In this document: piece after piece, positions 6,811 through 8,131 of the stretch
Position numbering within the stretch: the stretch's first letter is position 1
Layout: each line of letters starts with the position of its first letter
Source: a virus
Length of the DNA stretch: 64,000 bases
IMG/VR virus record: IMGVR_UViG_3300031920_000193
Strand: one strand, 5' to 3'
The notes under the pieces: model-generated
The model's database searches: none
What the model saw: the letters and a program-made list of their open reading frames with translations, nothing else
Told to the model about the DNA's origin: nothing
Made by a program: the position numbers and the translations under genes

Positions 6811-7755
6811 ATGAAAAAAAATAGTTTAACAATCAACAAAGGTCTTAGTCTTTCACAAGGACAATCAATATCTAATCTTTGTAATCAAAGAGCATTAGAA
6901 ATTGAAAATAAATTAAGTGTTATTAATAACTACACTGAAACAGTTAAAGTAGATGGTGGGAAAGAAGCACTTGAATTAATTAAAGCGGTTAAAATGCCGG
7001 AAGATGTTATTAAACTCATTGAAGAAAAAGCAAAACTTCACGCATGTCAAGCTTTTTTGATGGAAAACATCAAAGCAAAAGAAAATATGCTTCTTAGAAT
7101 TAAAAATGCAATACCGATCATAGATATAAAACAACCAGAAAAACCTGAAACTAAATACCCCGTAGAAATTGCTCTTATTGATGATAATTGGGGTTGGGAA
7201 CAATTAACGGCTAAAGAGTTGGCTGAATATTATGAGGTTGAGGCATTTGCTGCACATATAGGTCAGTTTATTCATAAAGGTGGTAAACTTACTTCTTTAA
7301 GAAAAGAATTGGTTGATTTACCTTCAGTAAGATGGATGGAAATTCAAACAGGTGTAAAATCACCAGTTACAATTAAGGCACATCATACACCAGAAGATTT
7401 ACATAAGATACATGAAGATTTAGCTACAATTCATCGCAAACATGAACAACGTGTGAATTATTTTAAAGCAAAGGTGAAGAATCTTGCAACTAAAGAAAAT
7501 GCAAGAATTGCTAAATTAAATAAAGATGCTCAAAGTGATGTTGATAAGATAAACGCAGATAATGGTGTTGAATATGAAAGAGTATTTAAATTAGCTGTAG
7601 ATAAAATAAACTTAGCTGAAAAGGAATTTGAAATTGCACGTCATGATGAGATTAGTGAAATCGCATCTATGCGTATTGGTATTGATGATAGATATCAAGT
7701 AACAATTGATAAGTTCTTAAATGAATTGAAAACTGAGGAAAACACTGAAGATTAA
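6811..7755 (+). CDS. coiled-coil protein followed by structured RNA candidate
   Basis: 314 aa, E/K/A/L-rich helical composition; followed by ~390 bp without a credible ORF. Confidence 0.85.
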   Translation: MKKNSLTINKGLSLSQGQSISNLCNQRALEIENKLSVINNYTETVKVDGGKEALELIKAVKMPEDVIKLIEEKAKLHACQAFLMENIKAKENMLLRIKNAIPIIDIKQPEKPETKYPVEIALIDDNWGWEQLTAKELAEYYEVEAFAAHIGQFIHKGGKLTSLRKELVDLPSVRWMEIQTGVKSPVTIKAHHTPEDLHKIHEDLATIHRKHEQRVNYFKAKVKNLATKENARIAKLNKDAQSDVDKINADNGVEYERVFKLAVDKINLAEKEFEIARHDEISEIASMRIGIDDRYQVTIDKFLNELKTEENTED

Positions 7756-7756
7756 T

Positions 7757-8131
7757 CAAGGTAAAAGACAGACGAAGTAAAAACTGAATCTGTCTTTTTT
7801 TACACTTGGTGGGTTGGTCCTTAATATTATAGACATATAGACATATAAACTAATGGTAGTATCGGTCATTGGTTCGCCAGTGAGCCGACACATACAATTT
7901 AAACAGAAAAAACCGCTTCTTTCACAACTCTAACGAGTCTTATAAAAGTTTTTTTGGGGTTCTTTTTACAAAAACGACCAAAGCTGAGTATAAGTTACTA
8001 CCTTTAGGGGTTAGATAATTAGACTCATAATTTAAGACTTAGTTTTTGACATTGCCTTTGTGTGAGAGAAGGTCTTTAACGTTGAATTTGACATTGATTT
8101 TGACTATATAACTAACCCATCAAGCGACTTG
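7757..8131 (+). ncRNA. candidate structured non-coding RNA (~370 nt)
   Basis: 14-bp closing helix 7805-7818/8111-8124 (2 G-U); 12-bp helix 7850-7861/7996-8007; UUCG hairpin 7862-7888; 10-bp hairpin 7763-7798. Confidence 0.7.

What the first reader, a model, noticed from the sequence alone, without database searches (positions are those of the whole stretch)
6811..8131. Coiled-coil gene followed by a ~370-nt highly structured RNA candidate (possible ribonucleoprotein system)
Seen: the ~390 bp after the 314-aa helical protein is a rare ORF-free gap in this otherwise tightly packed block. It contains nested helices: 7805-7818/8111-8124 (14 bp, both non-Watson-Crick pairs are G-U, which points to + strand RNA), 7850-7861/7996-8007 (12 bp, one U-U), a UUCG-capped hairpin 7862-7888, 7939-44/7989-94, and a 10-bp hairpin 7763-7798. 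It lacks tRNA and tmRNA ends. No TGTAAC-type promoter lies in front, so it is probably co-transcribed with and processed from the coiled-coil mRNA. Inference: a dedicated protein-ncRNA pair. The N-terminus loosely recalls DIP1984/DUF6847 coiled-coil proteins, but I could not verify this.
Basis: partly seen in the sequence, partly recalled or inferred. Interest (0 to 1): 0.82.

Follow-up and report, generated by a model that had tools for sequence, protein, structure and literature searches.

The report
New phage structured RNA with partner protein
The gap after the 314-aa gene encodes a real, roughly 370-nt folded RNA that sits right after this same unknown protein gene in almost every related uncultivated phage examined; neither the RNA nor the protein matches any described family, so it looks like a new phage RNA-protein module of unknown function.

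Summary
Window 7758-8130 (+) is a conserved structured RNA, not a chance fold. In 78 of 78 untruncated IMG/VR loci that carry a homolog of the 314-aa gene, the same element lies downstream on the same strand. A search with the RNA core pattern alone found the gene directly upstream in 75 of 80 loci. No other neighbouring gene is conserved.

RNAalifold on 16 relatives gives 61 base pairs, 46 of them with compensatory changes (0 of 500 shuffles reach this). A second long-range helix, P2 (7916-7926/8061-8071), is present in all 58 unique loci. G-U pairs favour the + strand. Two nearly invariant unpaired strands carry a U-W-R triplet every six bases.

There is no Rfam match. The protein has no Pfam, PHROG, NCBIfam or PADLOC match and no convincing fold match. 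It is predicted to form a symmetric homodimer. The module often lies inside same-strand tRNA arrays.

My best reading is a trans-acting RNA that works with the protein, probably as an RNP. Binding and function are inferred, not shown.

The parts
6811..7755 (+). Gene A: 314-aa protein of unknown family, always found with the RNA
   Evidence: ORF. 2538 homologs at E <= 0.001 in the 90%-identity clusters. 786 representative clusters in the profile search. No Pfam, PHROG, NCBIfam or PADLOC family. AF2 model pLDDT 87, pTM 0.79. No fold match.
7758..8130 (+). The whole structured RNA (about 373 nt), closed by pairing of its 5' and 3' ends
   Evidence: RNAalifold on 16 loci: 61 pairs, 46 with compensatory changes. 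96% of cells are paired against 82% in shuffles and 38-48% when partners are slid.
7759..7762 (+). P0 5' strand (AGGU). It pairs with 8127-8130 (ACUU); the pair 7758/8130 covaries in the 58-locus alignment
7763..7798 (+). H1 hairpin: 10-11 bp covarying lower stem, conserved internal loop (5' UA-R / 3' GA-N), 2-3 bp covarying upper stem, ACAA-type tetraloop. In the window it is followed by a run of U
7803..7817 (+). P1 5' strand of the long-range closing helix
   Evidence: It pairs with 8112-8126. Cognate -22.3 vs non-cognate -13.7 kcal/mol in 62 loci. 107 G-U pairs among 983 pairs; the + strand duplex is the better one in 51 of 62 loci.
7818..7911 (+). Variable AT-rich linker with a lineage-specific hairpin (UUCG hairpin 7862-7888 in the window)
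7912..7930 (+). Conserved block AACCGCUUCUUUCACAAC. Positions 7916-7926 are the P2 5' strand
7953..7982 (+). P3 hairpin (window subgroup). Most other loci have a CUGAG-AUAGAA-CUCA hairpin here instead
7985..8027 (+). P4: covarying outer stem 7985-7988/8024-8027, conserved internal loop (A)UAAGUUAC / GAUAAUUR, variable apical hairpin
8034..8060 (+). J-a: nearly invariant unpaired strand AAGACUUAGUUUUUGnCnUUGCCUUUG, with UUG every 6 nt
8061..8071 (+). P2 3' strand (UGUGAGAGAAG). It pairs with 7916-7926
   Evidence: A 9-12 bp helix in all 58 unique loci. Cognate -14.9 vs non-cognate -10.4 kcal/mol; many double changes.
8072..8109 (+). J-b: nearly invariant unpaired strand GUCUUUGAnnUUGnnnUUGnnUUUGAC...CUAUAU, with U-W-R every 6 nt
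   Evidence: Conserved at 75-86% nt identity in loci whose gene A is only 44-57% identical in protein.
8112..8130 (+). P1 3' strand (8112-8126) and P0 3' strand (8127-8130), followed by a U-rich tail 8131-8138

Best explanation
Window 7758-8130 encodes a stable, trans-acting, roughly 370-nt structured RNA. It forms a two-gene module with the 314-aa gene just upstream.

Shown:
- The RNA fold is under selection on the + strand. Its ends are closed by P0/P1, H1 branches off as a hairpin, and a second long-range helix (P2) encloses hairpins P3 and P4. Two invariant single strands carry phased U-W-R hexamers.
- The RNA and gene A are inherited together, while every other neighbour changes.

Inferred:
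- The RNA is transcribed with gene A, often within a tRNA-array precursor. It is released or stabilised by its closed terminal helix and by processing of adjacent tRNAs.
- It assembles with a dimer of protein A. The two direct-repeat-like strands J-a and J-b are the most likely platform, one per protomer.

The particle's target is unknown. Because the module sits among phage tRNA and tmRNA genes, with an RtcB RNA ligase gene 1.6 kb downstream in the window, I guess a role in tRNA or translation-related RNA metabolism during infection.
For: - Structure: 46 of 61 consensus pairs have compensatory changes. 0 of 500 column shuffles reach the observed values, and slid-partner controls fall to 38-48% paired.
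- P1 and P2 are found in every locus, and cognate strands pair better than non-cognate ones.
- Strand: 107 G-U pairs in P1; the + strand duplex is better in 51 of 62 loci.
- Linkage: 78 of 78 loci that extend past gene A have the core. 75 of 80 loci found by the RNA pattern alone have gene A directly upstream. A distant 372-aa homolog also carries the RNA.
- None of the other 35 window ORFs tested has a homolog in more than 8 of the 80 loci. Among 160 loci, the next commonest neighbour family occurs in 35 loci.
- Trans action: the RNA tolerates insertions of 128-1477 nt between it and gene A, and in L092 it lies 5 kb away.
- Context: 75 of 139 loci have tRNA genes within about 3 kb, and all 326 of those tRNAs are on the same strand. 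In 13 loci a tRNA starts within 100 nt after the RNA.
- Dimer: predicted complex score 0.55, best of 3 controls 0.00. This mark was reached by 20 of 30 proteins solved as pairs of one chain and by 1 of 23 solved as single chains. The runs agree in at least 7% of contacts, and the partner's pLDDT is at least 65.
- J-a and J-b read as direct repeats of each other.
Against: - There are no expression data, so neither a stable transcript nor any processing is shown.
- Protein-RNA binding is untested.
- Protein A is mildly acidic (pI 6.1; family range 5.4-6.8) and has no recognisable RNA-binding domain.
- The very distant homolog in bajarodcaudo virus 1 (27.6% identity over 51% of the query) has no long gap after it.
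- The phased strands are invariant, so covariation cannot say whether they are single-stranded protein sites or take part in tertiary or triplex contacts.
- H1 followed by a run of U could stop part of the transcription before the rest of the RNA.
Confidence: 0.5

Rival explanations
1. An RNA-only 'ornate' phage RNA in the manner of ROOL or GOLLD. It would fold, and perhaps multimerise, without protein A. The linkage to gene A would then reflect shared transcription or regulation of the gene, not a complex.
For: - The RNA is large, multi-helix and closed at its ends, with conserved internal loops.
- Protein A is acidic and has no RNA-binding domain.
Against: - The linkage to one protein family is near-absolute in both directions while all other neighbours vary.
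- ROOL and GOLLD are not tied to one protein family (my own knowledge).
- There is no Rfam match to either.
Confidence: 0.2
2. A cis-acting 3' element of the gene A transcript: a terminator or 3' stabiliser, or an autoregulatory site where protein A controls its own mRNA or read-through into the downstream genes.
For: - The RNA begins 0-13 nt after the stop codon in 53 of 58 loci.
- In the window, H1 is followed by a run of U, and the closing helix is followed by a U-rich tail.
- No promoter motif lies between gene and RNA.
Against: - 370 nt with two long-range helices and about 65 invariant unpaired bases is far more than a terminator or stabiliser needs.
- The downstream genes differ in every lineage.
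- The RNA persists when other ORFs are inserted between it and gene A, and at 5 kb distance in L092.
- The simple terminator scan finds nothing here.
Confidence: 0.13
3. A DNA-level element, such as an origin of replication, a protein-binding array of TTG hexamers, or a promoter cluster for the variable genes downstream.
For: - TTGACA-like words and a CTATAT box occur in J-b.
- The linker is AT-rich.
- The hexamer periodicity could reflect a DNA-binding array.
Against: - Helices up to 300 nt apart covary, with many G-U pairs that would be A-C mismatches on the other strand.
- The TTG boxes lie inside the RNA's closing helix.
- A 6-bp period does not match the helical repeat of DNA.
- Sigma-70-like sites are no more frequent than in shuffles, and TAnnTTTG is not enriched.
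Confidence: 0.04
4. A ribozyme, self-splicing intron or mobile RNA-guided element, with gene A as its maturase, nuclease or transposase.
For: - The module is a self-contained unit in changing surroundings.
- The RNA is of ribozyme size and has a closed terminal helix.
- It lies beside tRNA substrates.
- A Hatchet ribozyme sits upstream of gene A in L054.
Against: - No match to the group I, group II or RNase P models, or to any other Rfam family.
- Gene A ends before the RNA, and nothing conserved follows the RNA, so there are no exons to join.
- Only one copy per locus was seen.
- No nuclease, reverse transcriptase or transposase domain.
- No variable guide-like segment at either end.
Confidence: 0.06

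Closest known systems
ROOL and GOLLD large 'ornate' RNAs (PMC12286853, PMC5737381)
   Same: Large, highly structured non-coding RNAs of unknown function. They are reported in phage or prophage DNA, often near tRNA genes (my own knowledge for the tRNA context).
   Different: No sequence or structure match to their Rfam models. This RNA is shorter (300-400 nt, against about 580 and 800). It is tied to one protein family. It carries phased U-W-R single strands. It comes from a different group of uncultivated phages.
Bacterial Ro60 (Rsr) with Y RNA, encoded beside rtcB (PMC4201824)
   Same: A dedicated protein plus a non-coding RNA whose 5' and 3' ends pair. The genes are adjacent, and an RtcB ligase gene is nearby in the window.
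   Different: Protein A has no TROVE domain. There is no Y RNA model match. The RNA is three to four times longer and no tRNA-like domain was detected. RtcB is not a conserved neighbour in the other loci.
TRAP binding site in the Bacillus trp leader: 11 (G/U)AG triplets spaced by 2-3 nt and wrapped around a protein ring (my own knowledge)
   Same: A triplet repeated about ten times with a 5-6 nt period on unpaired RNA. This is the pattern expected for an oligomeric protein that reads one triplet per subunit.
   Different: The triplet is U-W-R, not (G/U)AG. The repeats lie in two strands inside a large folded RNA. Protein A has no match to any Pfam family, TRAP included, and is predicted to be a dimer. 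No attenuation logic is apparent.
TnpB/IscB nucleases with omega RNA
   Same: A protein gene followed directly by a conserved structured RNA made from its 3' end and downstream DNA.
   Different: No RuvC or HNH domain. No guide-like variable tail. One copy per locus, with no sign of transposon ends; the only inverted repeat covaries as RNA with G-U pairs.
phi29 packaging RNA (pRNA)
   Same: A phage-encoded structured RNA that works only together with phage proteins (my own knowledge).
   Different: No match to any Rfam model, which would include one for pRNA if the library holds it. Twice the size. The phages are very different, with contigs of 120-370 kb. No link to packaging genes was seen.

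Membership tests
Any Rfam 15 family (4227 models) | Covariance-model score at or above the family's gathering threshold | tested here: not met
   0 matches in the whole window. In the element itself, only chance-level matches at E 0.24-8.5, far below threshold. In 20 related loci only tRNA, tmRNA and one Hatchet ribozyme outside the element. Nothing in L078 or L082 copies of the element.
tRNA / tmRNA | Acceptor stem with T arm (and a tag reading frame for tmRNA), as detected by ARAGORN or Rfam | tested here: not met
   ARAGORN finds 0 genes in the window. tmRNA genes are found elsewhere in L035 and L059, separate from this element.
Intrinsic terminator (for hairpin H1 alone) | G+C-rich hairpin directly followed by a run of U, with no further constraint on loop sequence | tested here: inconclusive
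   In the window H1 is followed by 7 U. However, the terminator scan reports none. H1 also has a conserved internal loop and a covarying apical stem, and it is bracketed by P0, which needs the strand upstream of it.
Group I / group II intron | Conserved catalytic core and continuity of a host gene across the element | tested here: not met
   No Rfam intron match. Gene A ends at 7755 with a conserved C-terminus. Nothing downstream is conserved.
RNase P RNA, 6S RNA, Y RNA, ROOL, GOLLD, HEARO/omega RNA | Match to the curated model of the family, where the library holds one | tested here: not met
   No match at the gathering threshold or at E <= 10. I did not list which of these families the library holds. 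Whether the RNA works like one of them cannot be tested with these tools.
   A Pfam scan at E <= 0.1 lists only DUF2408 (E 0.024) and Fungal_TACC (E 0.058), both below their cut-offs. Ten distant family members also give no such match.
Type III toxin-antitoxin (ToxIN-like) | ToxN-type endoribonuclease plus a tandem array of antitoxin RNA repeats of about 34-36 nt | tested here: not met
   No PADLOC match for protein A. The only repeats are 6-nt phased triplets and 15-16 nt imperfect copies.
IS110/IS1111 recombinase with bridge/seek RNA; TnpB with omega RNA | DEDD/RuvC-type catalytic domain in the protein; a guide segment in the RNA | tested here: not met
   No such Pfam domains in protein A or its distant relatives. 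One weak sub-threshold Y1_Tnp hit (E 0.0066, 17 bits against a cut-off of 23) in one member. No variable guide-like segment.

The most novel reading that the evidence does not exclude
This is a previously undescribed class of phage ribonucleoprotein. A symmetric dimer of a protein with a new fold reads two phased U-W-R hexamer strands, which are displayed by a 300-400 nt ornate RNA. The module is carried by hundreds of uncultivated large phages inside their tRNA gene regions. The particle acts on the host or phage translation or tRNA apparatus, for example as a decoy, a scaffold or a processing factor.
Probability: 0.3. Interest if true: 0.88.

Novelty: categorically new. Interest (0 to 1): 0.8.

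Why it matters
Large structured non-coding RNAs are rare, and most that have been characterised turned out to carry out fundamental biochemistry. This one is supported by strong covariation and is widespread: the partner gene has 2538 homologs at E <= 0.001 and 786 representative clusters, on phage contigs of about 120-370 kb. Unlike ROOL or GOLLD, it comes with a single obligate partner gene, which gives experiments a direct handle: co-expression, pull-down and cryo-EM. Its place inside phage tRNA arrays suggests an unrecognised way for large phages to manage translation or RNA repair. The phased triplet strands suggest a new mode of protein-RNA recognition.

Tried and rejected
- RNA family searches found nothing for the element: Rfam at gathering and at permissive thresholds on the window and on relatives, and ARAGORN.
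- Protein searches found nothing: Pfam, PHROGs, NCBIfam and PADLOC on protein A and on distant members; a PDB profile search; Foldseek against PDB and BFVD; VIA-align wide. The only rows are generic helical bundles. ClyA-family and BipD rows appear at E > 0.1, and the best Z is 8.0 with rmsd 8.3 A over 141 residues. The ESM Atlas gave nothing usable.
- Isolated phages (INPHARED): only a 27.6%-identical hit in bajarodcaudo virus 1, with no long gap after the gene.
- GTDB genomes: only 6 MAG contigs that look like mis-binned phage DNA, so no host could be assigned.
- No whole genome is held for the window.
- Conserved neighbours that might hint at function: none. The commonest neighbour families have no Pfam match, apart from one helicase.
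- Bacteroidota-type TAnnTTTG promoter boxes are not enriched (104 found, 123 expected). Sigma-70 and terminator scans are at chance level.
- A small ORF in the conserved core was rejected. I read stops in all three frames of J-a in the window. The only open frame through J-b in the window is broken by an in-frame TAG in L078 (read by eye).
- A kissing interaction between the H1 apex and J-a: strong in the window subgroup, but cognate equals non-cognate across the family (-6.4 vs -6.25 kcal/mol). Inconclusive.
- A scan of all column pairs for extra pseudoknots found only the known helices.
- MAFFT Q-INS-i was not installed.
- The csRNA catalogue of Fremin et al. 2023 (PMC10690425) could not be checked because no supplementary files are held. 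Its entries are at most 151 nt, so at best it could hold fragments of this RNA.
- A 2026 preprint that maps prokaryotic non-coding families has no occurrence of 'phage', and its two other term hits are unrelated to this module.

Full report
**What is in the window**

The window is AT-rich and densely packed with short genes, and no genome is held for it. Its only DNA similarity to isolated phages is a 190-bp stretch of the 85-aa ORF at 8150-8407, which is about 70% identical to Flavobacterium phages vB_FspM_immuto. Gene A (6811-7755, 314 aa) is followed by 394 nt without a + strand ORF. This stretch folds better than all 100 shuffles (z = -2.8). It has no Rfam match at any threshold, and the window holds no tRNA or tmRNA.

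**Relatives**

Gene A has 2538 homologs at E <= 0.001 in the clustered protein collection and 786 representative clusters in a profile search. None has a Pfam family or an informative name. Eighty IMG/VR loci were fetched, with 43-57% amino-acid identity; many come from contigs of 100-370 kb.

- An ORF-free gap of roughly 330-440 nt follows the gene in most of these loci.
- The genes after the gap are never the window's (tblastn, 0 of 80 loci).
- Of 36 window ORFs tested, only gene A has homologs in more than 8 of the 80 loci.
- Clustering all ORFs from 160 loci finds gene A in 154 loci. The next commonest family is in 35.

**The conserved element**

A 76-nt core (window 8034-8109) is found in all 78 loci that extend past the gene. 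It is always on the same strand, usually 200-280 nt after the stop codon. It is 75-86% identical in DNA even where the protein is about 45% identical.

The reverse test used the core pattern alone against IMG/VR and returned 80 loci.

- 75 have gene A directly upstream on the same strand.
- 2 lack enough upstream DNA.
- 2 are chance matches inside coding sequence.
- 1 (L092) has a reduced RNA 5 kb from gene A.

A distant 372-aa homolog (P0229, locus L082) is also followed by the element, and a tRNA starts 5 nt after it.

**Structure**

RNAalifold on the window and 15 closer relatives gives 61 pairs, 46 of them with compensatory double changes. In my own count, 96% of cells are paired against 82% in 500 column shuffles. 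None of the shuffles reaches the observed values, and sliding the partners by 1-3 columns gives 38-48%.

In window coordinates:

| Element | Coordinates | Notes |
|---|---|---|
| P0 | 7759-7762 / 8127-8130 | Closes the RNA together with P1 |
| H1 | 7763-7798 | Branch hairpin |
| P1 | 7803-7817 / 8112-8126 | Long-range closing helix |
| P2 | 7916-7926 / 8061-8071 | Second long-range helix |
| P3 | 7953-7982 | Hairpin, window subgroup |
| P4 | 7985-8027 | Conserved internal loop (A)UAAGUUAC / GAUAAUUR |

- P1 exists in all 62 unique loci. Cognate arm pairs average -22.3 kcal/mol against -13.7 for non-cognate pairs.
- P2 exists in all 58 unique loci: -14.9 against -10.4 kcal/mol.
- P1 contains 107 G-U pairs among 983 pairs. 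The + strand duplex is the more stable one in 51 of 62 loci, so the + strand is the folded one.
- A scan of all column pairs in the 58-locus alignment recovers these helices and no further pseudoknot.

Two strands stay unpaired and almost invariant: J-a (8034-8060) and J-b (8072-8109). Both carry U-W-R every six bases and resemble each other as direct repeats.

H1 has a conserved internal loop (5' UA-R, 3' GA-N) and a covarying 2-3 bp apical stem with an ACAA-type loop. From memory, this loop and the P4 loop resemble UAA/GAN-type tertiary modules. That is a lead only.

- Confirmed: 7805-7818/8111-8124 and 7763-7798.
- The UUCG hairpin lies in a variable stretch. In many relatives this stretch also reads as a hairpin of unrelated sequence (by eye).
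- Not confirmed: 7850-7861/7996-8007 and 7939-7944/7989-7994. Both are real complementarities in the window, but they are absent from the consensus. The first competes with P4, and the second lies in a window-specific insertion.

**Transcription context**

The window carries a strong phage-type promoter-like motif, TGTAACC-N15-17-CGTATA(A/C)TAA. No complete copy lies between 6719 and 8657 on the + strand, so gene A, the RNA and the two small ORFs are probably one transcription unit.

The RNA starts 0-13 nt after the stop codon in 53 of 58 unique loci. In the other five, 128-1477 nt are inserted, including an RHS-repeat ORF in L012.

Of 139 loci, 75 have tRNA genes within about 3 kb, and all 326 of those tRNAs are on the module's strand. 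In 13 loci a tRNA starts within 100 nt after the RNA. This suggests that tRNA processing helps define the RNA's 3' end, which is an inference. The closing helix is followed by a U-rich tail in many loci.

**The protein**

AlphaFold2 with a 33-sequence alignment gives pLDDT 87 and pTM 0.79. A helix / beta-hairpin / helix unit occurs twice, followed by a C-terminal helical hairpin. Invariant residues include five histidines (H149, H155, H192, H201, H208), and there is a conserved basic stretch at R209-K235.

No search gives a convincing relative: Foldseek against PDB and BFVD, VIA-align wide, a PDB profile search and the ESM Atlas. BFVD holds only an uncharacterised ortholog. The pI is 6.1.

A two-copy complex prediction passes. 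The score is 0.55 and the best of 3 controls is 0.00. This mark was reached by 20 of 30 proteins solved as pairs of one chain and by 1 of 23 solved as single chains. The runs agree in at least 7% of contacts, and the partner's pLDDT is at least 65. The interface is large and symmetric, over residues about 35-85, 126-153 and 184-207. This supports a homodimer but does not show one.

**Interpretation**

Two claims are firm.

1. This is a genuine + strand structured RNA of about 370 nt.
2. It and gene A form a conserved, self-contained module.

The next step is inference: that the two products act together, most simply as an RNP in which a protein dimer engages the two phased strands. The acidic pI, the lack of an RNA-binding domain and the absence of any expression or binding data temper that reading.

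The rivals are weighed in their own section: an RNA-only ornate RNA, a cis-acting 3' element, a DNA-level element, and a ribozyme or mobile element. The DNA-level reading is the weakest because of the G-U-rich long-range covariation.

The module's function is unknown. Its setting among tRNA and tmRNA genes, with RtcB 1.6 kb downstream in the window, points loosely to tRNA or translation-related RNA metabolism.

**Novelty**

- The RNA is not in Rfam 15.
- The protein is not in Pfam, PHROGs, NCBIfam or PADLOC.
- The module is not in isolated phages.
- Literature searches found nothing that describes it.
- The IMG/VR csRNA catalogue (PMC10690425) holds only elements of at most 151 nt, and its files could not be searched here. 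Fragments such as H1 may be listed there unnamed.

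Noticed in passing
window, e.g. - strand 63420, 62281, 61804, 61539, 61210, 60829, 60555, 60038, 59188, 58464, 58109, 57127, 45199, 28497, 25510, 24935, 22543; + strand 272, 8657, 39853, 53470: A two-box promoter-like motif, TGTAACC-N15-17-CGTATA(A/C)TAA, is repeated 25 times or more. It lies mostly in front of - strand genes, often just after a short hairpin.
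   Followed up: partly
window 9744-10901 (+): An RtcB RNA ligase gene (Pfam PF01139, E 5.6e-110; PHROG 'tRNA splicing ligase') lies 1.6 kb downstream of the RNA. It is not a conserved neighbour in the related loci.
   Followed up: partly
L054 2543-2679: A Hatchet self-cleaving ribozyme (RF02678, 81 bits against a threshold of 51) lies about 320 nt upstream of the gene A homolog.
   Followed up: no
L035 1092-1511; L059 5488-5876; L031 2849-2926; L064 2671-2748: Phage-encoded tmRNA genes lie near the module. Suppressor-type tRNAs with anticodon UUA lie just upstream of gene A in two lineages, which may hint at stop-codon recoding in those phages.
   Followed up: no
L012 4014-5420: A 468-aa RHS/YD-repeat ORF is inserted exactly between gene A and the RNA. 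Small unknown ORFs are inserted at the same point in L028, L035 and L074.
   Followed up: partly
window 8150-8407 (+): The 85-aa ORF after the RNA is about 70% identical in DNA to a hypothetical gene of Flavobacterium phages vB_FspM_immuto. This is the only link to cultured phages and a weak hint at a Bacteroidota host.
   Followed up: no
L092 (locus oriented with the RNA core pattern on the + strand): gene A at 1064-1951, core pattern at about 6947: A reduced form of the RNA has P1, P2 and the core but no obvious H1. It lies 5 kb downstream of gene A instead of next to it.
   Followed up: partly
window 7826-7849: A short tandem duplication, TATAGACATA TAGACATATAA, lies in the variable linker of the RNA. 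It is window-specific.
   Followed up: no
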